Translations under genes and position numbers: made by a program | Virus record (IMG/VR): IMGVR_UViG_3300029076_000068 | Reading direction: 5' to 3' (one strand) | Source of the DNA: a virus | Taxonomy: Duplodnaviria; Heunggongvirae; Uroviricota; Caudoviricetes | Length of the DNA: 17,639 nucleotides | Shown here: positions 1 through 17,639 of the stretch, one piece after another | Layout: every line of letters starts with the position of its first letter | Numbering within the stretch: the stretch's first letter is position 1 | Notes under the pieces: model-generated | What the model was told of the DNA's origin: nothing | Seen by the model: only the letters and a program-made list of their open reading frames with translations | The model's database searches: none

Positions 1-2858
<2,858 letters not shown>

Positions 2859-2884
<26 letters not shown>

Positions 2885-3404
2885 TCAGCAACCCCGGTAT
2901 CAGTTCATCCAGCGCGGCTGCTTTGTTCATGGCTTTGATGATATCCCGTTTCAGGAAATCAACATGTCGGTTTTCCAGTTCCGGAAAACGCCGCTGCACC
3001 GACAGGGGGATCCCGTCGAGAATACTGGCAATTTCACCTGCGATCCGCGACAGCACGAAAGTACAGAATGCGGTTTCCACCACTTCAGCGGAGTCTCTGG
3101 CATTTTTCAGCTCCTGTGCGTCGGCCTGCGCACGCGTAAGTCGATGGCGTTCGTACTCAATAGTCCCTGGCTGGAGATCTGTCTCGCTGGCCTGCCGCAG
3201 TTCTTCAACTTCCCGGCGCAGCTTTTCGTTCTCAATTTCAGCATCCCTTTCGGCATACCATTTTATGACGGCGGCAGAATCATAAAGCACCTCATTACCC
3301 TTGCCACCGCCTCGCAGAACGGGCATTCCCTGTTCCTGCCAGTTCTGAATGGTACGGATACTCGCACCGAAAATGTCAGCCAGCTGCTTTTTGTTGACTT
3401 CCAT
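2859..3404 (-). CDS. Nu1: Terminase small subunit gpNu1
   Basis: 181 aa, MEVNKKQLADIFGASIRTIQNWQEQGMPV... (winged-HTH N-terminus); overlaps A start by 26 nt as in lambda. Confidence 0.95.
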
Positions 3405-3640
3405 TGTTCATTCCACGGACAAAAACAGAGAAAGGAAACGACAAAGGCCAAAAAGCCCGTTTTCAGCACCTGTCGTTTCCTTTCTTTTCAGGGGGTATTT
3501 TAAATAAAAACATTAAGTTACGACGAAGAAGAACGGAAACACCTTAAACCGGAAAATTTTCATAAATAGCGAAAACCCGCGAGGTCGCCGCCCCGTAACC
3601 TGTCGGATCGCCGGAAAGGACCCGAAAAATGATAATAATT
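3405..3640 (-). other. cos site (cosB with Nu1 R-sites, cosN, cosQ) of lambda type
   Basis: Reverse complement of 3541-3593 reads GGGCGGCGACCTCGCGGGTTTTCGCTATTTATGAAAATTTTCCGGTTTAAGG, the lambda left end as recalled. The 12-nt cohesive end GGGCGGCGACCT is at plus 3582-3593; 3594-3624 matches the lambda right end (..CGATCCGACAGGTTACG). Confidence 0.85.
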
Positions 3641-3792
3641 ATCATCTACATGTCACAACGTGCATCTACGCCATCAAACCACGTCAAATAATCAATTATG
3701 ACGCAGGTATCGTATTAATTGATCTGCATCAACTTAACGTAAAAACAACTTCAGACAATACAAATCAGCGACACTGAATACGGGACAACCTC

Positions 3793-4026
3793 ATGTCAAC
3801 GAAGAACAGAACCCGCAGAACAACAACCCGCAACATCCGCTTTCCTAACCAAATGATTGAACAAATTAACATCGCTCTTGATCAAAAAGGGTCCGGGAAT
3901 TTCTCAGCCTGGGTCATTGAAGCCTGCCGCCGGAGACTGTGCTCAGAAAAAAGAGTTTCTCCTGAAGCAAACAAAGAAAAGAGTGACATTACTGAATTGC
4001 TCAGAAAACAGGTCAGACCAGATTGA
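3793..4026 (+). CDS. ylcI: DUF3950 / YlcI-like small protein with predicted ribbon-helix-helix DNA-binding fold
   Basis: 77 aa; RNIRFPNQMIEQINIALDQKGSGNFSAWVIEACRRRL fits the RHH pattern (beta strand, helix, G-x-S turn, helix). Resembles the DLP12 ylcI product as recalled. Confidence 0.6.
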   Translation: MSTKNRTRRTTTRNIRFPNQMIEQINIALDQKGSGNFSAWVIEACRRRLCSEKRVSPEANKEKSDITELLRKQVRPD

Positions 4027-4068
4027 AGCAATTTAGATAATCGTGCAGACTACGCCCCCTCATATCAC

Positions 4069-4494
4069 ATGGAAGGTTTATCTATGGATCAGGTAGTCAT
4101 TTTTAAACAAATATTTGATAAAGTTCGAAACGATTTAAACTATCAATGGTTTTATTCTGAGCTAAAACGTCACAATGTCTCACATTACATTTACTATTTA
4201 GCCACAGAGAATGTTCATATTGTATTAAAAAATGATAATACAGTGTTATTAAAGGGCCTAAAAAACATTGTGTCTGTCAAATTTTCAAAGGATAGGCATC
4301 TTATAGAAACGACCTCTAATAAGCTGAAATCCAGAGAGATCACATTTCAGGAATACAGAAGAAACCTTGCTAAAGCAGGAGTTTTTCGGTGGGTTACAAA
4401 TATCCACGAACAAAAAAGATATTACTATACCTTTGATAATTCATTACTCTTTACTGAAAACATACAGAGCACATCACAAATGTTTCCACACTAA
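4069..4494 (+). CDS. ybcV: DUF1398 / YbcV-like protein (AT-rich moron)
   Basis: 141 aa, ...[45 protein letters not shown]...; resembles DLP12 YbcV as recalled. Alternative start at Met 6 (4084). Confidence 0.6.
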
Positions 4495-4988
4495 ACCATA
4501 ACGTCCGGTTTCTTCTACCCCTGCACCGGACTGGCTGACATGAAGAGCAACCCCGCGTTCAGTTGACGCGTTAATAACCCGGTGTGCATCGTTTTTGATT
4601 ATTCCCGCACACTCACGCAGAAGGAATTCCCCGTCGGGCTACGGTCATGGTTAATGCGGGAATACGGCGACGATACAGCGCATGATGTGTCAGGCTTGAA
4701 TACCTTTATCCGTTAAAAGGGATATCAGTTAAGTTATCCCGTGTAGGGTATAAGCCATTGTCGAGACCACTCATTGAATGGCCTCTGCAATAACCGATGT
4801 CTTTCCATCAGTCCGCCACCACAAAGAATCTTTTTTGCCTTAAGGCAGGAGCTTCATCTTTCAGTGGCTGCCAGTGTTATTTCCCCACTTACTGGCTTGG
4901 GTTGTTTCGTGGTACTGCCGTTAACTGGTGGCCCAGAATAAATTCCGGTTTCATTATCAAGCCCACCCGTAAATGGGCTTTGTAATGG

Positions 4989-5264
4989 CTACTTCACTTT
5001 TGCTTTTGCTTTTGCTTTTGCTTCCGCTCGCTTATGCCGGCGCTCTTCTTTCCTCTCGGCTTTTGCCATGTCCATGAATGCCTGCATGATCGAGTTCCGC
5101 ATCATGTAGCTAACAAAGTGATGATTGACACAGCCGTTGAGGCGCAGCTGCTCGCCAAACTCATCCACCGAGGCCAATGCTTCCATCATGCCCTTCTCGC
5201 CTTTCATGAACTCTGAGAAGTCGCGCCCCGCTCTGGAGGCGCATTCAATGACACGATCACTCAT
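4989..5264 (-). CDS. Hypothetical small protein with C-terminal (AK)n tail
   Basis: 91 aa ORF; its ATG overlaps the stop of the upstream KilA-N gene (ATGA). C-terminus AEAKAKAKAKVK is encoded by a hexanucleotide repeat. Confidence 0.5.
   Translation of the reverse strand: MSDRVIECASRAGRDFSEFMKGEKGMMEALASVDEFGEQLRLNGCVNHHFVSYMMRNSIMQAFMDMAKAERKEERRHKRAEAKAKAKAKVK
4997..5020 (-). repeat. Tandem hexanucleotide repeat (CTTTTG)x4 on plus, encoding (AK)n
   Basis: cttttg cttttg cttttg cttttg, followed by a degenerate unit; lies in the 3' end of the 4989-5264 ORF. Confidence 0.9.
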
Positions 5265-5758
5265 CCCGGAAGCCCGGGGATCGTAATCTGCAGCTGGTTA
5301 GCCAGGGAGTTAATCTCAGCGACCAACACTGGCTTCGTATAGCGCCATGCTGCCAGCCCTTGTCCGCAGAAGCTCGCCATGTCTTTCTTCTGGTCAAACT
5401 CATGACATTTCATGTTGAGCTGCGCACTTAAGCTGTTGCGATGCTGAAGTTCTCCGGTGAAGTAGTCATCGAGGACTTTATAGGCCGCGTACTTGAACCC
5501 GGGGTTTAACCAAGCCGCATAATCGTAAGCAACAAACTTCCCGCCATATGTTCCACCGTGTACACCGCGCTCAGTAAAAACCACAGATTCGTGGTTTTTC
5601 TCCAGCTCGGCTAAGAACTCTTTGGTCTGCTTGTTTCGCAGATAGTGGTACGGCGATTCAGATTCACTTTTACCACTAGCTTTCCACATGTCAGTGAGGC
5701 AGATCATGCCATCTTCACCGATACGAATTGGTTGATTGAAGAGGGTTAATGATTTCAT
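5261..5758 (-). CDS. KilA-N domain protein
   Basis: 165 aa; IRIGEDGMICLTDMWKASGKS...KQTKEFLAELEK...ERGVHGGTYGGKFVAYDYAAWLNPGFKYAAYKVLDDY fits the KilA-N pattern. Confidence 0.65.
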   Translation of the reverse strand: MKSLTLFNQPIRIGEDGMICLTDMWKASGKSESESPYHYLRNKQTKEFLAELEKNHESVVFTERGVHGGTYGGKFVAYDYAAWLNPGFKYAAYKVLDDYFTGELQHRNSLSAQLNMKCHEFDQKKDMASFCGQGLAAWRYTKPVLVAEINSLANQLQITIPGLPG

Positions 5759-5959: not shown

Positions 5960-6430
5960 TTATTTCAGGCATTGCGTCCTGATGTATTCCTGCAGGTAGT
6001 TAACCTGCGCGGTTATCTTGTCGATTCCACTTCGGAGACGGTAATAATTGAGTTCAGCATCTGCTGTAAGTCCTGGGCTTTCTCCATCGCCCATGCCGCT
6101 GGCTCCGGTCGTTGACTTTGCACAGGTGGCGGCGACTTGCAGGCGCTTACGCCCAGCAGAAACATCAGCACGGAGACTTTCGATAGTCGCGTTAGCATCA
6201 GCAAGCTCCTTTGTGTATCTTGCGTCGAGTTCTGCTACATCACGTTGACGCTTCCGCATGTCAGCGATGGTGGCGTTCGCCTTCTCCAGTTCACTGGCCT
6301 TGTTATCGCGCTGCTCTTTGTAGGCGATTGCGTTATCACGGTAATGATTAACAGCCCATGACAGGCAGACGATGATGCAGATAACCAGAGCGGAGATAAT
6401 CGCGGTTACTCTGCTAATTGTTTCCCCCAC
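5960..6430 (-). CDS. rzpD: Spanin inner-membrane subunit Rz (i-spanin)
   Basis: 156 aa; N-terminal TM ([20 protein letters not shown]) then coiled-coil-like region; similar to lambda Rz. Track start is GTG at 6428-6430, so the start codon is uncertain. Overlaps endolysin 3' end. Confidence 0.8.
6013..6204 (-). CDS. rzoD: Spanin outer-membrane lipoprotein Rz1 (o-spanin), embedded in Rz in the +1 frame
   Basis: 63 aa; signal peptide with lipobox-like LLGVSAC followed by proline-rich [12 protein letters not shown]; fully nested inside Rz. Confidence 0.7.
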
Positions 6431-6912
6431 AAACAGATTTCACGCTCAATCTCACGACGAGTCATGAGACCTTTCCATTGCTTACCGCCAGCATATGTCC
6501 AGCGACGTAGCTGATCACATGCGCCTTTGATATCGCCCTGGTTTATTTTGCGAAGAAGCGTCGATGTTCTGAAATTGCCAGCACCCACGTTGTAAACGAA
6601 TGAGTAAAGAGCGCCGCGCGTTGTTTCCGGTATATCGACTTCGATGTACGGGTTAATTTGTCTGGCGACAGTGGCAAGGTCTTTATTCAAGAGTGCTTTG
6701 CATTCTGCTTTGGTATACGTTTTACCGAGCATGATGTCTTTTCCTGTATGCCCGTGACATACAGTCCATACACCAACAATATCTTTGTATGGTATGTAGC
6801 TGACACCTTCCAGACCATCGTTACCACTTGGGCCAGTGATTAACACTGATGCTATAGCAATTGCTCCGCCACCAATAGCAGCAGCAACGGCTTTTCGTAA
6901 TGATGGAGGCAT
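6406..6912 (-). CDS. rrrD: SAR endolysin (phage 21 R-type lysozyme)
   Basis: 168 aa; N-terminal Gly/Ala-rich signal-anchor-release segment [17 protein letters not shown]; rest resembles P21 / DLP12 lysozyme as recalled. Confidence 0.9.
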
Positions 6913-7127
6913 TATTCACCTCTCGCAGCCTTGCGCTTATCTTCTTTAATCTTGAAATAAAGGTTTGTCAGGTACGTCAGCAGGCCAAATACCAGGCTAC
7001 CCAGCACACCTATTGCTGCCCACTGTGAGGGCGTGACTTTATCGAGCAGCTGTAAAAACCAGTAACCGGCACTACCTGCTGAGGTGCCATAGGCGACACC
7101 CGTTGTTAACTTATCCATGGATTTCAT
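6912..7127 (-). CDS. essD: Pinholin (phage 21 S-type holin) with dual-start motif
   Basis: 71 aa, [31 protein letters not shown]...; two TM segments; Met1-Lys-Ser-Met4 dual start typical of antiholin/holin pairs. Confidence 0.9.
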
Positions 7128-7700: not shown

Positions 7701-8798
7701 ATGAAAAAATTAACAGTGGCAATTTCTGCTGTAGCTGCATCAGTACTGATGGCGATGTCTGCTCAGGCAGCTGAAATTTATAATAAAGACAGTAACAAGC
7801 TGGATCTGTACGGGAAAGTTAATGCTAAGCACTACTTCTCCTCTAATGATGCAGATGATGGTGATACTACTTATGCCCGTCTTGGCTTCAAAGGTGAAAC
7901 CCAAATCAACGATCAACTGACTGGTTTCGGTCAGTGGGAATATGAATTCAAAGGCAACCGCGCTGAATCTCAAGGTTCCTCCAAAGACAAAACCCGTCTT
8001 GCATTTGCAGGCCTGAAATTCGGTGACTACGGCTCAATCGATTACGGCCGTAACTACGGTGTAGCATACGACATCGGTGCGTGGACTGACGTTCTGCCAG
8101 AATTCGGTGGCGATACCTGGACCCAAACAGATGTGTTCATGACTGGTCGCACCACTGGTGTTGCAACCTATCGTAACAACGACTTCTTTGGTCTGGTTGA
8201 TGGTCTGAACTTTGCTGCTCAGTACCAAGGCAAAAACGATCGTAGCGATTTCGATAACTACACTGAAGGTAACGGTGATGGCTTCGGTTTCTCTGCTACC
8301 TATGAATACGAAGGATTCGGTATCGGTGCAACTTATGCGAAATCTGATCGTACCGACACTCAAGTTAATGCAGGGAAAGTTCTTCCTGAAGTATTTGCTT
8401 CCGGTAAAAATGCAGAAGTTTGGGCCGCAGGTCTGAAATATGACGCTAACAACATTTACCTGGCCACTACCTATTCTGAAACCCAGAATATGACTGTATT
8501 TGCTGATCACTTCGTTGCTAATAAAGCCCAAAACTTCGAAGCTGTTGCACAATATCAGTTCGATTTCGGTCTGCGTCCGTCCGTTGCTTACCTGCAATCT
8601 AAAGGTAAGGATCTTGGAGTATGGGGCGATCAGGACTTAGTCAAATATGTTGATGTAGGTGCAACCTATTACTTCAACAAAAATATGTCTACTTTCGTTG
8701 ATTACAAAATCAACCTGCTTGACAAAAATGACTTCACTAAAGCACTCGGTGTAAGCACTGATGACATCGTTGCTGTAGGTCTGGTTTACCAGTTCTAA
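7701..8798 (+). CDS. nmpC: OmpC-family general porin (NmpC/OmpD-like), intact, antisense to the late operon
   Basis: 365 aa; signal peptide [23 protein letters not shown] then [17 protein letters not shown]...; C-terminal ...VGLVYQF beta-barrel motif; SD AAGGG upstream. Confidence 0.9.
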
Positions 8799-8936
8799 TC
8801 TGATTACGAAAAAGATATGTTGCGGGAGGCGTTGCCTCCCCAACATATAAGTGGCTCCCTCAAGCCACTTCCTTTAGAAGCACAACCTTGCTTCTAACTA
8901 TATAAACCTTCTGTTATATATTACCCTTTATTTTTG

Positions 8937-9593: not shown

Positions 9594-9956
9594 TCATTCA
9601 TTCCCCATTTCGGTGATGGTCAGTTCCAGCCTCCCACCTTTGGTAACAGGCATCTTCACAACGCGGTAATCAACGACCTGAGCATCATCCAGCCAGAAAC
9701 CTGCTTTAGTGAGTGCGTCAAAAGCGGCTTTTTGCAGATTATCCAGGTCACGGCGACGGCGATCCGGCATGTGGCACTCAATGCGGATTTTCACAGGCAT
9801 AGCCAGGCCGATATCCAGCATTGCGTTTTTAATGATTCGGGCGACGTTATCGCGGTATGCCTGCCCCTCTGCGCTGATGTGCGTGCGCCCGCGATTATGG
9901 CGGTAATAGCGATTATTGCTCGGAGGCCAGGGTAATGTGATGCTGTAGGTATTCAC
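9594..9956 (-). CDS. rusA: Holliday junction resolvase RusA
   Basis: 120 aa, [38 protein letters not shown]...; GTG start at 9954-9956. Confidence 0.9.
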
Positions 9957-9959
9957 GCC

Positions 9960-10073
9960 TTAATAACCCCCTCTTTCAGCCAGATAGACGGCCTGCTGTG
10001 AAACTTCGCAGGCAGCGCCTAGTTTCTTTTGTGAACCAACGATATTGATCGCTGTTTTGATGGCTGGGTTCAT
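9960..10073 (-). pseudogene. Truncated Cro/YdaS-family HTH ORF (37 aa), divergent from cI
   Basis: Hand-translated: MNPAIKTAINIVGSQKKLGAACEVSQQAVYLAERGGY*; carries only the HTH segment. Its stop is in frame with, and one codon upstream of, the rusA GTG start. Confidence 0.45.
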
Positions 10074-10177
10074 AACAACCTCCGTGGTTAATTTGAATCA
10101 AGATTAAAACTATGGTTTTTTTTAGTCAACAACCATTTTCGTTTGATGAAATAAAACCTTGGTTGTACATTTGGACT
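10074..10177. promoter_or_regulatory. Divergent cI/cro-like promoter-operator region (oR-like)
   Basis: Inverted ACAACCA (10129-10135) / TGGTTGT (10160-10166) plus near-palindrome TTGAATCAA (10093-10101); lies between divergent repressor and cro-like starts. The same ACAACCA motif recurs at 12578-12584. Confidence 0.4.
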
Positions 10178-10867
10178 ATGAAAACAACACTCTCAGAAAG
10201 ACTTAAAGAAGCCAGATTAGCGCGAGGCCTTACACAAAAGGCGCTTGGGGATTTGGTCGGGGTTAGCCAAGCAGCTATTCAGAAAATCGAAACAGGGAAA
10301 GCTAACCAAACAACTAAAATCGTGGAGATCGCGAACGCTTTGGGTGTGCGCGCAGAATGGTTATCTTCTGGCGTTGGAAATATGTCAGACAGTACAGTGC
10401 AACCAATACAAACAACTGTCAGCCATTCCAAATACTTTAAGATTGACGTTCTTGATATCGAAGTGAGTGCCGGGCCGGGAGTCATCAACCGTGAGTTTGT
10501 AGAAGTTCTACGTTCGGTTGAGTATTCGTTTGACGATGCTCGTCACATGTTCGATGGCAGGAAGGCGGAAAATATCCGTATCATTAACGTACGCGGTGAC
10601 AGCATGTCAGGAACGATCGAACCAGGTGATCTGCTGTTCGTTGATATCACTGTTAAATCTTTCGACGGTGATGGTATCTATGCGTTTCTGTACGACGACA
10701 CAGCCCATGTAAAGCGCCTGCAAATGATGAAGGATAAACTGCTGGTTATCTCTGATAACAAGAGCTACTCACCGTGGGACCCAATCGAGAAAGACGAGAT
10801 GAACCGGGTATTCATCTTCGGGAAAGTCATCGGGAGCATGCCGCAGACGTATAGGAAGCATGGATAA
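10178..10867 (+). CDS. CI-type prophage repressor (HTH_XRE N-domain + LexA/S24 autopeptidase C-domain)
   Basis: MKTTLSERLKEARLARGLTQKALGDLVGVSQAAIQKIE (HTH); Ala-Gly cleavage site in EVSAGPGV; Ser nucleophile in VRGDSMSGTIEPGDLLFVD; Lys in HVKRL. The track ORF starts at 10112; an HTH at the N-terminus favours 10178. Confidence 0.85.
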   Translation: MKTTLSERLKEARLARGLTQKALGDLVGVSQAAIQKIETGKANQTTKIVEIANALGVRAEWLSSGVGNMSDSTVQPIQTTVSHSKYFKIDVLDIEVSAGPGVINREFVEVLRSVEYSFDDARHMFDGRKAENIRIINVRGDSMSGTIEPGDLLFVDITVKSFDGDGIYAFLYDDTAHVKRLQMMKDKLLVISDNKSYSPWDPIEKDEMNRVFIFGKVIGSMPQTYRKHG

Positions 10868-10962
10868 TTCGACATAAATTCAACAAGTTAACTTTGGCTT
10901 CAAAAAAGCATCGATAACATTGCATTATATTTTTCCTTTTGTCTAACTTAAAAGGATGAACA

Positions 10963-11688
10963 ATGGAAGAACGTGGGAATTACCTAATAGACCCCCTAGA
11001 AGTAATTGGTTCTGGCGGTTTTGGCCTTGTAGAAAAAATAAGGTTATATAACTCACAAAGAAAAATTTGTGGTCTATATGCCAGAAAAATTTTACGACCT
11101 GATGCAACAGATCCTGAACTCTTTACCAGATTTGAACGAGAAGTAAGATATCAAACTGAATGCCTGCATACTAATATTGTCCAAATATTCATATGCCACT
11201 TACAGAATGCTCAGCCTTGGTTCGTAATGGAACTAGCAGAAACAAATCTTGAAGAAGAAATAAAAAGTGGAACTCTTACAAAGGCTGAAAAAATCTCTAT
11301 TGTAAAAATGGTACTAAATGCCGTCGGATGGATTCATAAGAAAGGATATCTTCATCGGGATATAAAACCACTAAATGTACTAAAATTTAAAGATGGAATT
11401 TATAAGTTATCTGACTTCGGCCTTGCAAAAAATGTGTCACCAGATGCCAATACACAGCTATTAACACAAATTGGCCAATACCCCGCTACTCCTAAATACT
11501 TTGATTACAACGTTTTCCTCAACGGATATTCAAAACAATCAGATATATATTCAATTGGTATTTTAATTGAAGAATTAAATATTGATGGTTTTGATGATAT
11601 AATAAACAAATGTACGCATAGACAACTTAACAAAAGATTCCTGACCGTAGAGCAGATCTTTGAGGAATTGGAGTTGAAACGCTTATGA
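10963..11688 (+). CDS. Hanks-type (eukaryotic-like) Ser/Thr protein kinase, minimal kinase domain
   Basis: 241 aa; Gly-rich loop GSGGFGLV, Lys in LYARKIL, catalytic loop HRDIKPLN, DFG in LSDFGLAK, subdomain IX SDIYSIG. SD AAAGGA upstream. About 35-40% GC by eye. Confidence 0.85.
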   Translation: MEERGNYLIDPLEVIGSGGFGLVEKIRLYNSQRKICGLYARKILRPDATDPELFTRFEREVRYQTECLHTNIVQIFICHLQNAQPWFVMELAETNLEEEIKSGTLTKAEKISIVKMVLNAVGWIHKKGYLHRDIKPLNVLKFKDGIYKLSDFGLAKNVSPDANTQLLTQIGQYPATPKYFDYNVFLNGYSKQSDIYSIGILIEELNIDGFDDIINKCTHRQLNKRFLTVEQIFEELELKRL

Positions 11689-12428
11689 TTAGCATACTCT
11701 CATCATCCATATTTTCTGTACCAAAACATAATGGCAGGGAAAATCAAGATAGCGTGCTTTATCCACTTCAAACACCAAATGGTTATCTTATGGCTATAGC
11801 TGATGGGGTTGGTGGTTATAAAGGAGGAAAAGAAGCATCTGCAGCAGTAATAAATCATTTGTATAGTATTAAAGACAGCTTCACTCATGAAGACAATGTC
11901 TTATCCTTACTTAAGACCCTACAAGAAAAGGTGGCATCTCTTTCGTCAGTTGATAAAGAATTAGCATCTGCTGCTACAACTTTAACAATGTGCCTACTTC
12001 ACAATCAAGGTCTAACAATTATACATGTAGGTGACTGTCGTGTTTATTTAAAAAATGGAAATAAGCTAATCCAATTAACAACAGATCATACTCAACATCA
12101 AATGTTGATAGATAGCGGTATTTATACAGCTCGACAGCTCAAAAATGCAAAAGGTAAAAATATTATTACAACTGCACTTGCTGCCAAGATCCCTCTTCAA
12201 CATCAAGTCATAAATATTGATAAAGATGAACTTCCTCTTGACGATGGTGTTCTATCTCTATTCATCATGTCTGATGGCGCGCATACCTTTTGGGAGCAAC
12301 GCCCACGATTTTCTTACCGTACATTGTCAACCGCATCAAGGTTTGCCTCCAGCCTAATGCGAAGAATAGAGACAAAAGGCCCGACTGACGATTATTCTCT
12401 TATAGCGGTAAATGTAAAGTATTTGTAA
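11685..12428 (+). CDS. PP2C-family (PPM) Ser/Thr protein phosphatase
   Basis: 247 aa; metal-binding motif AIADGVGGYKGGKEAS, then HVGDCRVYL, TTDHT and C-terminal MSDGA. Start ATG overlaps the kinase stop (ATGA at 11685-11688). Confidence 0.85.
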   Translation: MISILSSSIFSVPKHNGRENQDSVLYPLQTPNGYLMAIADGVGGYKGGKEASAAVINHLYSIKDSFTHEDNVLSLLKTLQEKVASLSSVDKELASAATTLTMCLLHNQGLTIIHVGDCRVYLKNGNKLIQLTTDHTQHQMLIDSGIYTARQLKNAKGKNIITTALAAKIPLQHQVINIDKDELPLDDGVLSLFIMSDGAHTFWEQRPRFSYRTLSTASRFASSLMRRIETKGPTDDYSLIAVNVKYL

Positions 12429-13492: not shown

Positions 13493-14278
13493 ATGAGTAC
13501 AGCACTCGCAACGCTGGCTGGGAAGCTGGCTGAACGTGTCGGCATGGATTCTGTCGACCCACAGGAACTGATCACCACTCTTCGCCAGACAGCATTTAAA
13601 GGCGATGCCAGCGATGCGCAGTTCATCGCATTGCTGATCGTCGCCAACCAATACGGCCTTAATCCGTGGACGAAAGAAATTTACGCCTTCCCTGATAAGC
13701 AGAACGGCATCGTTCCGGTGGTGGGCGTTGATGGCTGGTCCCGCATCATCAACGAAAACCAGCAGTTTGACGGCATGGACTTTGAACAGGACAACGAATC
13801 CTGCACATGCCGGATTTACCGCAAAGACCGCAATCATCCGATCTGCGTTACCGAGTGGATGGATGAATGCCGCCGCGAACCATTCAAAACTCGCGAAGGC
13901 AGAGAAATCACGGGGCCGTGGCAGTCGCATCCCAAACGGATGTTACGGCATAAAGCCATGATTCAGTGTGCCCGTCTGGCCTTCGGATTTGCTGGTATCT
14001 ATGACAAGGATGAAGCCGAGCGCATTGTCGAAAATACTGCATACACTGCAGAACGTCAGCCAGAACGCGACATCACTCCGGTTAACGATGAAACCATGCA
14101 GGAGATTAACACTCTGCTGATCGCCCTGGATAAAACATGGGATGACGACTTATTGCCGCTCTGTTCCCAGATATTTCGCCGCGACATTCGCGCATCGTCA
14201 GAACTGACACAGGCCGAAGCAGTGAAAGCTCTTGGATTCCTGAAACAGAAAGCCTCTGAACAGAAGGTGGCTGCATGA
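13493..14278 (+). CDS. bet: Red beta single-strand annealing protein Bet
   Basis: 261 aa, [59 protein letters not shown]...; lambda Bet as recalled. Confidence 0.95.
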
Positions 14279-14955
14279 CACCGGACATTATCCTGCAGCG
14301 TACCGGGATCGACGTGAGAGCTGTCGAACAGGGGGATGATGCATGGCACAAATTACGGCTCGGCGTCATCACCGCTTCAGAAGTTCACAACGTGATAGCA
14401 AAGCCCCGCTCAGGAAAGAAGTGGCCTGACATGAAAATATCCTACTTCCACACCCTGCTTGCCGAGGTTTGCACCGGTGTGGCTCCGGAAGTTAACGCTA
14501 AAGCACTGGCCTGGGGAAAACAGTACGAGAACGACGCCAGAGCCCTGTTTGAGTTTACTTCCGGCGTGAATGTTACTGAATCCCCGATCATCTATCGCGA
14601 CGAAAGTATGCGCACCGCCTGCTCTCCCGATGGTTTATGCAGTGACGGCAACGGCCTTGAACTGAAATGCCCGTTTACCTCCCGGGATTTCATGAAATTC
14701 CGGCTCGGTGGTTTCGAGGCAATAAAATCGGCTTACATGGCCCAGGTGCAGTACAGCATGTGGGTGACGCGAAAAGATGCCTGGTACTTTGCCAACTATG
14801 ACCCACGAATGAAGCGTGAAGGCCTGCATTATGTCGTGGTTGAGCGGGATGAAAATTACATGGCGAGTTTTGACGAGATGGTGCCGGAGTTCATCGAAAA
14901 AATGGACGAGGCACTGGCTGAAATTGGTTTTGTATTTGGGGAGCAATGGCGATGA
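14275..14955 (+). CDS. exo: Lambda exonuclease (Red alpha)
   Basis: 226 aa, [47 protein letters not shown]...; overlaps bet stop (ATGA). Confidence 0.95.
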
Positions 14956-15374: not shown

Positions 15375-15596
15375 ATGACACCTCAGCAAGAAAACGCCCT
15401 TCGCAGTATTGCCCGTCAGGCTAATTCTGAAATCAAAAAAGCCAGACAGCAGTTTCCNNNNNNNNNNNNNNNNNNNNNNNNNNNNNNNNNNNNNNNNNNN
15501 NNNNNNNNNNNNNNNNNNNTAACGCTGATGGGATTCACACCGACTCATTTAAGCCTGGCGATCGGCATGTTAAACGGCGTCTTTAAGGAACGGTGA
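15375..15596 (+). CDS. Lambda b-region small protein (orf61-like), interrupted by an N run
   Basis: MTPQQENALRSIARQANSEIKKARQQF, then 62 N, then TLMGFTPTHLSLAIGMLNGVFKER*. Frame and length across the gap cannot be verified. Confidence 0.4.
   Translation: MTPQQENALRSIARQANSEIKKARQQFXXXXXXXXXXXXXXXXXXXXXXTLMGFTPTHLSLAIGMLNGVFKER
15458..15519. other. Run of 62 ambiguous bases (N): assembly gap or masked segment
   Basis: Directly visible in the sequence. Confidence 0.99.
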
Positions 15597-15694: not shown

Positions 15695-15916
15695 ATGGCA
15701 GACATCATTGATTCAGCATCAGAAATTGAAGAATTACAGCGCAACACAGCAATAAAAATGCGCCGCCTGAACCACCAGGCTATATCTGCCACTCATTGTT
15801 GTGAGTGTGGCGATCCGATAGATGAACGAAGACGCTTGGCCGTTCAGGGTTGTCGGACTTGTGCAAGTTGCCAGGAGGATCTGGAACTTATCAGTAAACA
15901 GAGAGGTTCGAAGTGA
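15695..15916 (+). CDS. TraR/DksA-family C4 zinc-finger protein (lambda Orf73-like)
   Basis: 73 aa; CCECGDPIDERRRLAVQGCRTCASCQ four-Cys zinc finger typical of TraR/DksA C-terminus. Confidence 0.8.
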   Translation: MADIIDSASEIEELQRNTAIKMRRLNHQAISATHCCECGDPIDERRRLAVQGCRTCASCQEDLELISKQRGSK

Positions 15917-16126
15917 GCGAAATTAACTAGAAGCCAAAGATAAAATCATCGCTGAGCAGGAGAAAATCGCTAACGGAGAAAAGACAGTAAGTCAGTATAT
16001 GAAAACCGCATGATATCATCAGATAAAAATCGATCGTAAAGCGAAATATTAATACCAGAATAAACGAGTCGAGGTAAATTATATTACCTCGATAAATTAA
16101 CTAAAACTTGCCCGCTATATACTATC

Positions 16127-16729
16127 TCATTCAGTATCATCACGCGCGGTCTGTGTATATGTTACTACCGCACCTAATGTATTAATTTTCTTTTCAACAT
16201 AGATAATATTATCGTACTCATAATTGCCATACGGATAGCAAATGCGAATATTCTCATGTAGATCGGGGTCATCCACCTCAGCTCCAGAACAACTTTTTGA
16301 ACTACCGGAAGTATACCGATACGGTGCAACATAAGACGATGTCTCTCCAGGCAAAAAATAAGTTAGTGTTGTAAGGGGTATAATCAGAAAAAATCCAGCA
16401 AATATGCACATTCCTGCATAAACCTTAAGGTATGCTGACAGACTCTTCCAGCCGCTTTGTTTTACTATCCCCTTCTTAACCCAAAACAGAGATAACAGAA
16501 AAGCTATTCCCATGCTAAACAGAATGTAATAGTGGGATATACTCTGATTAAGAAACGTGACCCTGTAAATATCTGCCCGCCACCAGAAGAAAAGGAAAAT
16601 AAAGATCAGGCCTGAAACTGTCATGCAAATCAAATAAGGATACGAATCTTTTTTCATGTTTAGCGCCCATAAAATTTTTCCTGCCCCGGACAAATTTACC
16701 ATCCATTTTCTGCGCAGAAAATAGCTCAT
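16127..16729 (-). CDS. Hypothetical integral membrane protein (AT-rich moron)
   Basis: 200 aa; three to four hydrophobic helices (YLICMTVSGLIFIFLFFWW, YYILFSMGIAFLLSLFWV, VYAGMCIFAGFFLIIPLTTLTYFL) plus a ~80-aa Cys/Tyr-containing soluble C-terminus. Start ambiguous among Met1, Met10 and Met25. Confidence 0.55.
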   Translation of the reverse strand: MSYFLRRKWMVNLSGAGKILWALNMKKDSYPYLICMTVSGLIFIFLFFWWRADIYRVTFLNQSISHYYILFSMGIAFLLSLFWVKKGIVKQSGWKSLSAYLKVYAGMCIFAGFFLIIPLTTLTYFLPGETSSYVAPYRYTSGSSKSCSGAEVDDPDLHENIRICYPYGNYEYDNIIYVEKKINTLGAVVTYTQTARDDTE

Positions 16730-16971
16730 TACTTACTGCACAATAATACACAAAATTGCGTAAATTTTTTGCATGGATTTTAGCTCTTTCAGCCGACGTT
16801 TAAGGGGTAAATAGCATTTCCTAAAAGCAACTGCACCAACCCAACAGAATGAACTACCGCTTACGTTGAGAGCAAAAAAGTGTATAGCAGCAATGAACAG
16901 CATCCTCGCACTGACGGGGATTTCTTTTATCTGAGCTAGCTACGGCGAGTTTTGTTTTATGGAGACAAGAA

Positions 16972-17316
16972 ATGTCAGATTTGGCTATGAAGGTTTTGAA
17001 ATGGCAATCAACTGGCGATGTCGGCATCAGTAGCGCAACTCTTGCCTCAATCGCATGTGGCCTGAAAAAGAATATCTATGGTCATCACTTCGGCGCTCCC
17101 CATGACGCAGCAGACTTTCGGCGATGCGTTGCACTTGTTGAGCAGATTCCAGAAATCAGAGATTCATTCAACAAGGTTGCAAAGCGCGTTCCGGCATTCA
17201 AAGGAATCCTCAACGAATGGGATTCACTCGTTGCTCTGTTGAAGTCTGAAATGAAGACGTACGGGAACAAAGCACCAGAGACTTACAGAAGAATCAGCGA
17301 GCTACGCAAGGACTAA
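16972..17316 (+). CDS. Hypothetical protein
   Basis: 114 aa ORF with a good SD (GGAGACAAGAA-ATG); no family recognised. Confidence 0.5.
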   Translation: MSDLAMKVLKWQSTGDVGISSATLASIACGLKKNIYGHHFGAPHDAADFRRCVALVEQIPEIRDSFNKVAKRVPAFKGILNEWDSLVALLKSEMKTYGNKAPETYRRISELRKD

Positions 17317-17438
17317 CCCGCCTCACACTCGATGAGGCCTGTTCATTTCTCAAGATATCCAGACCTACCATTGCTGCATCAATGCGGCTTTTTATTGCCT
17401 GATTTGCAGGTTCGATTCCATATTCGGAGATAGCACTC

Positions 17439-17639
17439 ATGCAACACGAACTACAACCTGATTCACTGGTTGATTTGAAATTCATCATGGCTGATACTGG
17501 CTTCGGTAAGACCTTCATCTATGACCGGATTAAGTCCGGCGACCTGCCTAAAGCCAAAGTTATCCACGGACGAGCAAGATGGTTATATCGTGACCATTGT
17601 GAATTCAAAAATAAGCTCTTAAGCCGCGCCAATGGGTAA
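17439..17639 (+). CDS. AlpA-family HTH protein (excisionase / prophage regulator-like)
   Basis: 66 aa; LVDLKFIMADTGFGKTFIYDRIKSGDLPKAKVIHGRARWLYRDHCEFKNKL fits the AlpA/Xis winged-HTH pattern. Stop codon is the last three bases of the window. Confidence 0.65.
   Translation: MQHELQPDSLVDLKFIMADTGFGKTFIYDRIKSGDLPKAKVIHGRARWLYRDHCEFKNKLLSRANG

What the first reader, a model, noticed from the sequence alone, without database searches (positions are those of the whole stretch)
16069..17316. AT-rich moron block near the excisionase: multi-pass membrane protein with Cys-rich C-terminal domain plus divergent unknown ORF
A 200-aa minus-strand ORF with three to four TM helices and a soluble Cys/Tyr-rich tail is far more AT-rich than the adjacent red genes. 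It is followed downstream by a perfect 9-bp-stem hairpin (16069-16092, TCGAGGTAA/TTACCTCGA). A 114-aa unassigned ORF with a strong SD is transcribed divergently (16972-17316). Small membrane proteins at prophage b-region/int-proximal hotspots are frequently superinfection-exclusion or injection-blocking factors.
Basis: inference. Interest (0 to 1): 0.5.

Follow-up and report, generated by a model that had tools for sequence, protein, structure and literature searches.

The report
Prophage moron encoding orphan membrane protein
The AT-rich block is a single self-contained "extra" gene carried by many E. coli prophages; it encodes a small inner-membrane protein of unknown function that is a reasonable but untested candidate for blocking infection by other phages, and the neighbouring 114-aa gene is an unrelated ordinary early phage gene.

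Summary
The sequence features are real, but several details and the grouping are wrong. The minus-strand ORF (16127-16729) is almost certainly a 176-aa protein starting at Met25 (ATG 16657). It has three TM helices, not four. Its roughly 70-aa C-terminal beta domain is predicted periplasmic, Tyr-rich, and has only two (invariant) cysteines. It is 97-99% identical to phage 434 gene CPT_434_36 and O157 Sakai ECs_0804, and occurs in 915 of 5426 complete E. coli genomes. It behaves as a one-gene moron: GC 0.38 against 0.52, a hairpin terminator, and a conserved upstream control region that travels with it. Diverged homologues (47-79%) sit in the gpA-gpQ anti-phage hotspot of P2-like prophages, where Rousset et al. 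2022 catalogued the family as unnamed "System #4, 3 TM". Its sequence is absent from their table of tested systems. Other homologues are stable chromosomal genes in Enterobacter. No homology or fold match to any known exclusion or defence protein was found. ORF114 is the long-known 434 ORF114, a gene in the leftward early (pL) operon direction with normal GC. It co-occurs with the membrane gene in only about 12% of carriers. Superinfection exclusion at the envelope is the best guess (about 0.4), but it is unproven.

The parts
16127..16657 (-). Coding sequence of the 176-aa membrane protein, from the conserved Met25 start to the TGA stop. It has three TM helices (N-terminus inside) and a C-terminal beta domain of about 70 aa, predicted periplasmic, with two invariant Cys.
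   Evidence: ORF. Start conserved in all homologues. Hydropathy and charge bias. AF2 pLDDT 85.8. dN/dS 0.07-0.13.
16658..16729 (-). The 24-codon 'N-terminal extension' of the mechanical 200-aa ORF. It is most likely untranslated leader plus promoter, not coding sequence.
   Evidence: Not conserved as protein. Interrupted by a stop in the P2-like E. coli copy. Contains the conserved palindrome and -10-like block.
16693..16701 (-). TGGTAAATT, an extended -10-like element (TGnTAAATT), about 36 nt upstream of the conserved ATG.
   Evidence: The block GGATGGTAAATTTGT / GGTGATAAATTT is conserved between lambdoid and P2-like copies. Assigning it as a promoter is inference; the consensus scan did not flag it.
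16705..16722 (.). 18-bp perfect palindrome ATTTTCTGCGCAGAAAAT, a candidate operator over the -35/spacer region.
   Evidence: An imperfect version sits at the same place in P2-like copies. The binding factor is unknown.
16737..16753 (-). Direct repeats TTGTGTA-N3-TTGTGCA at a 10-bp period. Phage 434 annotators marked this as a CII-like TTGYN6TTGY site.
   Evidence: There are 2-4 copies in Salmonella and E. coli P2-like loci. The generic TTGYN6TTGY pattern is not enriched: 7 found against 4.6 expected.
16069..16092 (-). Perfect 9-bp stem, 6-nt loop hairpin followed by CTCGTTTATT. Probable intrinsic terminator of the membrane gene.
   Evidence: A related GGTAA...TTACC hairpin follows the stop codon in Salmonella P2-like copies.
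16733..16903 (-). 56-aa ORF annotated in phage 434 (CPT_434_35) as 'putative membrane protein'. Doubtful gene.
   Evidence: Not called by RefSeq. No PHROG, Pfam or NCBIfam hit. Homology with P2-like copies ends downstream of it, so it is not part of the mobile unit.
16902..16921 (+). Terminator-like hairpin on the pL-direction strand, between the membrane gene and ORF114. It lies at the position of the terminator annotated tL4 in the 1990 phage 434 record.
16955..16971 (+). 17-bp Shine-Dalgarno-containing sequence. In phage 434 it precedes both ORF55 and ORF114. Here the two alignments to 434 overlap at 16949-16965, which marks the junction where ORF55 is missing.
   Evidence: BLAST of the window against 434; coordinates.
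16972..17316 (+). ORF114, a conserved all-alpha protein of unknown function in the pL operon direction. It is an independent module, not part of the moron.
17373..17388 (+). Terminator-like hairpin at the position of t'I, upstream of xis.
17439..17639 (+). TorI-type excisionase, the right-hand boundary gene.
15695..15916 (+). DksA/TraR-type zinc-finger protein of 73 aa, in the 'orf73' position of the exo-xis region. The left-hand boundary gene.

Best explanation
Shown. The AT-rich block (about 15917-16971) is a one-gene moron inserted antisense into the leftward early (pL) exo-xis region of a lambdoid prophage. It encodes a 176-aa protein with three TM helices and a conserved beta domain of about 70 aa carrying two invariant Cys. 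It has its own hairpin terminator. About 100 bp of upstream sequence moves with the gene between lambdoid and P2-like prophages. This upstream region holds direct repeats, a palindrome and a -10-like block.

Inferred. The topology is N-terminus in the cytoplasm, with loop 1 and the C-domain in the periplasm, where the two Cys form a disulfide. The gene is transcribed from its own promoter in the lysogen, when pL is repressed.

Proposed function. The protein acts at the envelope as a superinfection-exclusion factor. Its conserved periplasmic face would bind a conserved host inner-membrane or periplasmic component, or the trans-envelope conduit of an incoming phage. This would block genome entry after adsorption without killing the cell.

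ORF114 is a separate pL-operon gene of unknown function and plays no part in this.
For: Anatomy.

Moron behaviour. Gene GC is 0.38-0.44 against 0.52-0.55 in the flanks, in both phage types. The gene is present in 915 of 5426 E. coli genomes, and prophages that carry the adjacent genes often lack it. It is always a stand-alone gene. It is antisense to the lambdoid early operon (window) and convergent with gpA in P2-like phages.

Hotspot location. 14 of 79 IMG/VR loci, and the Salmonella, Klebsiella and E. coli homologues, lie between gpA and the portal gene gpQ. PMC9122126 describes this locus as holding old, tin and diverse validated defence systems. The family is its 'System #4', with 470 loci. 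One locus lies between an integrase plus HNH-domain gene and the prophage end.

Topology. Loop 2 carries +5 charges and no acidic residues, while the C-domain has a net charge of -6 and two invariant Cys. A loop-1 beta strand is modelled next to the C-domain strands.

Precedent. P22 SieA is a 162-164-aa inner-membrane protein with three predicted TM helices. It is encoded by a separately transcribed gene and blocks DNA injection. HK97 gp15 is a moron-encoded membrane exclusion protein.
Against: No functional data exist. The family's sequence is absent from the tested-systems table of PMC9122126, and no paper in the searchable library mentions the gene.

The periplasmic domain is the most conserved part of the protein. 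This is not what an arms race with variable phage proteins would predict.

At least seven Enterobacter species carry a syntenic chromosomal orthologue with host-like GC and no phage or defence neighbours. This suggests a cellular role.

Neighbours in the P2 hotspot gave no PADLOC hits, and the hotspot also carries non-defence cargo such as partition systems and toxins.

The promoter is inferred only, and expression in lysogens is unknown.
Confidence: 0.4

Rival explanations
1. The protein is a lysogenic-conversion or host-fitness envelope factor unrelated to phage exclusion. Its periplasmic domain would bind a conserved host envelope component to change, for example, sensitivity to colicins, T6SS effectors or antimicrobials, envelope signalling, or a transporter. 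Prophages would have captured it from a chromosomal Enterobacteriaceae gene.
For: Syntenic chromosomal orthologues with host-like GC lie next to a HAMP-GGDEF gene in at least seven Enterobacter species. Single-gene chromosomal copies occur in Klebsiella, Citrobacter and Pseudescherichia with no phage genes within 6 kb. The periplasmic domain is under the strongest constraint. The P2 hotspot also carries virulence and maintenance cargo. Conserved upstream repeats and a palindrome suggest control by a host regulator.
Against: Nothing links the protein to any particular host pathway. It has no domain or fold assignment. The phage-borne copies sit in positions enriched for anti-phage cargo.
Confidence: 0.3
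2. The protein is a membrane-disrupting effector or toxin, acting as an abortive-infection or holin-like protein. It would be triggered during infection or induction and kill or arrest the cell.
For: Small multi-TM proteins are common effectors in defence systems found in the same hotspots. A YafO toxin gene is a neighbour in one Salmonella locus.
Against: It is always a lone gene with no sensor or partner. Its cytoplasmic parts are tiny: a 6-aa N-terminus and a loop of about 19 aa. It is stably kept in the chromosome of Enterobacter. It is not in the lysis cassette, which lies at 5960-7127.
Confidence: 0.1
3. The membrane gene and ORF114 form a two-gene functional unit expressed from a shared divergent control region.
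For: They are head-to-head, 242 bp apart (314 bp from Met25), in this window and in phage 434.
Against: The two genes are contiguous in only 115 genomes, against 915 carrying the membrane gene and 963 carrying ORF114. 49 of 64 lambdoid IMG/VR loci have ORF55 in place of ORF114, and P2-like and chromosomal copies have neither. ORF114 has normal GC, reads in the pL operon direction, and is separated from the membrane gene by a terminator-like hairpin.
Confidence: 0.03
4. The ORF is spurious or a decaying fragment of a larger gene.
For: It carries only 'hypothetical' annotations. The annotated start varies (200, 191, 188, 176 and 112 aa).
Against: dN/dS is 0.07-0.13 across genera. The AF2 model is confident. 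Invariant motifs are shared by proteins that are 41-78% identical. The full 176-aa frame is intact even where a 112-aa product was called.
Confidence: 0.02

Closest known systems
Phage 434 genes CPT_434_36 (putative membrane protein) and ORF114 / CPT_434_33. Also E. coli O157:H7 Sakai prophage Sp3 ECs_0804, and phages 2B8 and mEp332.
   Same: The DNA is 94-99% identical and the gene order is the same: orf73 zinc finger, membrane gene (antisense), [ORF55], ORF114, xis.
   Different: The window lacks ORF55 and has a TorI-type xis instead of the 434 xis/int. None of these genes has a known function.
'System #4' (no Pfam, '3 TM') of the P2-like gpA-gpQ hotspot, Rousset et al. 2022, Table S5B (PMC9122126).
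   Same: Same protein family: 51% identity, E = 2e-56, same length, same 3 TM helices and same C-terminal motifs. It is a single-gene cargo.
   Different: It sits in a different phage type and a different hotspot. It was catalogued but is not in the table of tested systems.
P22 SieA (superinfection exclusion A).
   Same: It is an inner-membrane protein of about 165 aa with three predicted TM helices. Its gene is separately transcribed, with its own promoter, on the opposite strand to the neighbouring genes 20 and 16. The single protein is sufficient to block DNA injection.
   Different: No detectable homology (hhalign probability 0.1%). The layout differs: one N-terminal TM, a long loop, then two TMs and a short tail. 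SieA's conserved motif FxRYPxEAxxFNK is predicted cytoplasmic and is absent here.
HK97 gp15 moron product.
   Same: It is a moron with its own terminator, encoding a small membrane protein that blocks genome entry.
   Different: It is 62 aa. There is no homology (hhalign probability 0.9%), and it lies within the tail genes.
Lambda exo-xis region accessory genes (orf60a, orf63, orf61, orf73, ea22, ea8.5).
   Same: Same genomic slot between exo and xis. The window has the DUF1317 (orf60a) and DUF1382 (orf63) proteins and the 73-aa zinc-finger gene.
   Different: The positions of ea22 and ea8.5 are taken here by the antisense membrane moron and ORF114. Neither is related to those proteins.

Membership tests
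Moron (independent transcription unit added to a phage genome; PMC3594210) | Nucleotide composition differs from that of the flanking phage genes | tested here: met
   GC is 0.38 against 0.52 in the window, and 0.41-0.44 against 0.52-0.55 in P2-like prophages.
Moron | Present in some related phages and absent from others; spread by horizontal transfer | tested here: met
   915 of 5426 genomes carry it, while 2451 match some part of the surrounding 1551-bp block. It is found in lambdoid, P2-like and integrase-proximal contexts.
Moron | Own terminator | tested here: met
   A hairpin at 16092-16069 with a T-rich tail is flagged as terminator-like. This is sequence-level evidence only.
Moron | Own promoter and expression from the repressed prophage | tested here: inconclusive
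   A conserved upstream block including TGnTAAATT travels with the gene. No consensus sigma-70 promoter was called, and there are no expression data.
P22 SieA family | Sequence homology to SieA types A-C, including the FxRYPxEAxxFNK motif | tested here: not met
   hhalign probability 0.1%. The motif is absent.
P22 SieA family | [quoted passage not shown] | not testable with these tools
   Needs fractionation and infection assays.
HK97 gp15 family | Sequence homology | tested here: not met
   hhalign probability 0.9% over 14 TM residues.
Any catalogued defence or exclusion family (PADLOC v2; PHROGs) | Profile match | tested here: not met
   No PADLOC hit at E <= 1. All 21 family members hit only phrog_1416, which has unknown function.
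P2 hotspot 'System #4 / 3 TM' family (PMC9122126 Table S5B) | Homology to the listed 181-aa protein | tested here: met
   51% identity over 167 aa, E = 2e-56.
P2 hotspot 'System #4 / 3 TM' family | Location between gpA and gpQ | tested here: not met
   The window copy is in a lambdoid exo-xis region. The criterion is met only by the 47-79% identical homologues.
Lambda CII-activated promoter (pRE/pI/paQ type) | TTGC-N6-TTGC straddling a weak -35, with a -10 about 13 nt downstream, and CII present | tested here: inconclusive
   TTGT-N6-TTGT lies at 16753-16740, but the generic pattern is at chance level: 7 found against 4.6 expected. The repeats are also conserved in P2-like copies. No cII-sized ORF lies between rusA and the repressor gene in this window.
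NfeD-like (TM helices plus C-terminal beta barrel) | Sequence or fold match to the NfeD C-terminal domain | tested here: not met
   No Pfam hit. There was only a non-significant BFVD hit, E = 0.17.
Phage 434 ORF114 (phrog_1229) | Sequence identity and position upstream of xis | tested here: met
   The DNA is 94% identical to 434 across this segment, and the position is the same. phrog_1229 matches at E = 3e-51.

The most novel reading that the evidence does not exclude
The 3-TM family is a new, broadly acting class of envelope-level superinfection-exclusion protein. It is carried by both siphophage (lambdoid) and myophage (P2-like) prophages. Its invariant disulfide-bonded periplasmic beta domain would disable a conserved host component that several phage types need for genome entry. 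Its expression would be set by a host regulator that binds the conserved direct repeats and palindrome that travel with the gene.
Probability: 0.2. Interest if true: 0.6.

Novelty: new member of a known kind. Interest (0 to 1): 0.4.

Why it matters
The gene is in about 17% of complete E. coli genomes, including O157:H7 Sakai and EDL933 and the classic phage 434. Its family is the fourth most common cargo of the P2 anti-phage hotspot. Yet it has no name, domain, fold relative or phenotype. Showing that it blocks phage entry, and identifying what its periplasmic domain binds, would add a widespread exclusion mechanism that could matter for phage therapy and typing. If it is not anti-phage, it is a common unexplained lysogenic-conversion factor. 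Either way the experiment is simple and cheap.

Tried and rejected
1. Family assignment. Pfam, NCBIfam and PADLOC gave nothing for the membrane protein or for ORF114. PHROGs gave only families of unknown function. The weak DUF6057 hit (13.8 bits against a 29.8-bit cutoff) is TM noise.

3. Repeat-protein hits. The two long repeat-protein hits in the exhaustive search (P0187, P0194) are low-complexity noise.

4. The '112-aa short form'. It is seen on more than 1000 contigs and looked like a one-TM isoform or a truncation. The DNA shows an intact 176-aa frame, so it is a start-codon miscall. This also explains the 90-residue phrog_1416.

5. CII-site idea from the 434 annotation. It could not be supported.

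7. Rfam. No RNA family was found in the window.

8. PADLOC on hotspot neighbours. No hits.

Full report
**What is there.** The window is the pL-arm end of an E. coli lambdoid prophage. The genes in order are gam, bet, exo (14275-14955), the DUF1317 and DUF1382 proteins, a 73-aa DksA/TraR zinc-finger gene (15695-15916), the minus-strand ORF of the finding (16127-16729), a 114-aa plus-strand ORF (16972-17316) and a TorI-type excisionase (17439-17639). In strain RM9088 the same 2 kb is 99.4% identical and is followed by dsdC. The segment 15601-16965 is 98-99% identical to phage 434 and to O157:H7 Sakai prophage Sp3. In 434 the ORFs are annotated CPT_434_36 ('putative membrane protein') and CPT_434_33. 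The latter was already named ORF114 in the 1990 GenBank record M60848, which also names ORF55 and the terminators tL4 and t'I. The window lacks ORF55. The two alignments to 434 overlap at 16949-16965, a Shine-Dalgarno-containing sequence that in 434 precedes both ORF55 and ORF114.

**Checking the observation.** The ORF, its AT-richness (GC 0.388 against 0.521 for gam-bet-exo) and the perfect 9-bp hairpin at 16069-16092 are all real. The hairpin lies 34 nt after the stop codon and is followed by CTCGTTTATT on the coding strand. The consensus scan flags it as terminator-like. The 77-nt region folds at -17.6 kcal/mol, z = -2.76. Perfect 9-bp hairpins are rare in the window: 3 were found against 0.45 expected, and one of the others follows the porin gene.

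Four details need correcting:
- The protein almost certainly starts at Met25 (ATG 16657) and is 176 aa long. Every diverged homologue starts there. An E. coli P2-like copy has a stop five codons upstream. The 24 extra codons overlap conserved non-coding-type elements.
- There are three hydrophobic segments and three TM helices in a confident AF2 model (pLDDT 85.8), not four.
- The tail is Tyr-rich (9 of 73 residues) but has only two cysteines, both invariant.
- ORF114 has ordinary GC (0.472) and reads in the exo/xis direction. It belongs to the pL operon, not to the AT-rich insert.

**The protein.** Loop 2 carries five Lys/Arg and no acidic residue. The N-terminus carries two positive charges, and the C-domain has a net charge of -6. 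By the positive-inside rule the N-terminus and loop 2 are cytoplasmic, and loop 1 and the C-terminal domain are periplasmic. The model shows five beta strands in the C-domain plus a short strand in loop 1. The invariant residues cluster in loop 1 (I..T.L) and in the C-domain (CSGA.V...L...I.IC.P.G.Y). The two invariant Cys fit a periplasmic disulfide; this is inference. The gene is under strong purifying selection (dN/dS 0.07-0.13), and in distant comparisons the C-domain is more conserved than the TM part. The family is small. An exhaustive profile search of 1.84 billion representatives found 62 proteins. It occurs in only 12 of 185,579 GTDB species genomes; eleven are Enterobacteriaceae and the twelfth is a 3.6-kb contig, in a genome labelled Nanosynbacter, that carries E. 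coli lambdoid genes. No Pfam, NCBIfam or PADLOC family matches, only a PHROG of unknown function, and no significant PDB or viral fold relative exists.

**Where the family lives.** The near-identical gene is in 915 of 5426 complete E. coli genomes and in phages 434, 2B8 and mEp332.

Of 79 IMG/VR loci:
- 64 are lambdoid exo-xis regions. All copies at 97% identity or more are in this group.
- 14 lie between the replication gene gpA and the portal gene gpQ of P2-like phages. These copies are 51-79% identical.
- One lies between an integrase plus HNH-domain gene and the prophage end.

Look-ups of individual homologues agree. Salmonella, Klebsiella michiganensis and E. coli homologues sit in the gpA-gpQ slot, convergent with gpA. 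Rousset et al. 2022 describe that slot as the P2 locus of old and tin and as a hotspot rich in validated anti-phage systems, although it also carries partition systems and toxins. Family motifs do not occur in their table of tested constructs.

In prophages the gene is always much more AT-rich than its flanks. In contrast, at least seven Enterobacter species carry a 35-44% identical orthologue at one syntenic chromosomal site next to a HAMP-GGDEF gene, with host-like GC. Klebsiella, Citrobacter and Pseudescherichia have isolated chromosomal copies.

**Control region.** About 100 bp upstream of Met25 is alignable between the lambdoid copy and the E. coli and Salmonella P2-like copies, although the flanking DNA is unrelated. 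It contains:
- 2-4 direct repeats TTGTGYA at a 10-bp period (window 16753-16737);
- an 18-bp palindrome, perfect in the window (16705-16722);
- a block GGATGGTAAATTTGT containing TGnTAAATT (16701-16693), about 36 nt before the ATG.

I read this block as an extended -10 promoter with regulator sites. That is inference: the consensus scan found no canonical promoter. The 434 annotators' CII-site label rests on TTGYN6TTGY, which is at chance frequency in the window. Its conservation in P2-like phages argues for some other factor. A promoter here would start transcription inside the 200-aa ORF's extension, which again favours Met25.

**Mechanism.** I rank envelope-level superinfection exclusion first (about 0.4). 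The arguments for it are these. The gene is a lone, separately transcribed membrane gene, antisense to an early operon. It moves between hotspots of unrelated temperate phages. It exposes a conserved domain to the periplasm, where incoming phage conduits and their host receptors sit. It resembles P22 SieA in size and TM count, and HK97 gp15 in being a moron. It is not a member of either family.

The strong conservation of the periplasmic domain and the stable Enterobacter orthologues fit a conserved host target better. They also keep open a non-phage envelope role (about 0.3). A toxin or abortive-infection effector is less likely, because there is no partner and almost no cytoplasmic mass (about 0.1).

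**Verdict.** This is a real and widespread but uncharacterised one-gene moron, already present in public annotation and in one hotspot catalogue. The exclusion hypothesis is reasonable, cheap to test and unproven. Interest is moderate.

Noticed in passing
window 10112-12428 (+): A cI-like S24/HTH repressor gene (10112-10867) is followed by a eukaryote-type Ser/Thr protein kinase (10963-11688) and a PP2C phosphatase (11685-12428). All are AT-rich (GC 0.33-0.38). From my own knowledge, this resembles the repressor-linked kinase of phage 933W that excludes HK97.
   Followed up: no
window 9594-10112: The RusA gene (minus strand) ends 156 bp from the repressor gene. No cro/cII/O/P-sized ORFs lie between them, and there is little room for N between the PP2C gene and cIII/kil. 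The prophage looks replication-defective or rearranged.
   Followed up: partly
window 7701-8897: A full-length general porin gene (Porin_1, 365 aa) sits between the antiterminator Q gene and the holin gene. It is followed by a perfect 9-bp hairpin at 8874-8897, so it is a second moron-like insert.
   Followed up: no
window 3793-4494: An AT-rich pair of genes, DUF3950 (77 aa) and DUF1398 (141 aa), lies next to the Nu1/terminase genes.
   Followed up: no
window 15458-15519: A run of 62 masked N bases lies inside the ORF that occupies the orf61 position of the exo-xis region.
   Followed up: no
window 16705-16753 (minus strand); L004, L005, L021, L022 upstream of the gene: Direct repeats TTGTGYA at a 10-bp period and an 18-bp perfect palindrome ATTTTCTGCGCAGAAAAT are conserved with the gene across lambdoid and P2-like prophages. 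The factor that binds them is unknown.
   Followed up: partly
window 16972-17316; proteins P0089, P0091, P0108, P0109, P0125, P0126, P0137: Public databases hold many chimeric ORFs that join part of ORF114 to Kil, ERF, Ea22 or DUF550 (PF04447, dATP/dGTP pyrophosphohydrolase-type) sequences. This marks the ORF114 gene as a frequent recombination junction in lambdoid phages.
   Followed up: no
L022-L024 (E. coli P2-like prophages), gene at 4001-4339: A 112-aa product indexed on more than 1000 contigs is a start-codon miscall (internal GTG) of an intact 176-aa gene. The same artefact probably created the 90-residue phrog_1416.
   Followed up: yes
L025 (GTDB record labelled Candidatus Nanosynbacter MAG, 3.6-kb contig): The contig carries E. 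coli lambdoid exo, orf73 and the membrane gene at 97-99% identity. It is almost certainly contamination of the MAG.
   Followed up: partly
L013-L015 (Klebsiella michiganensis P2-like hotspot) 2281-5623: A 790-aa AAA_16-domain protein and a 279-aa protein sit next to the 3-TM homologue in the gpA-gpQ hotspot. They have no PADLOC match and may be an uncatalogued defence pair.
   Followed up: partly
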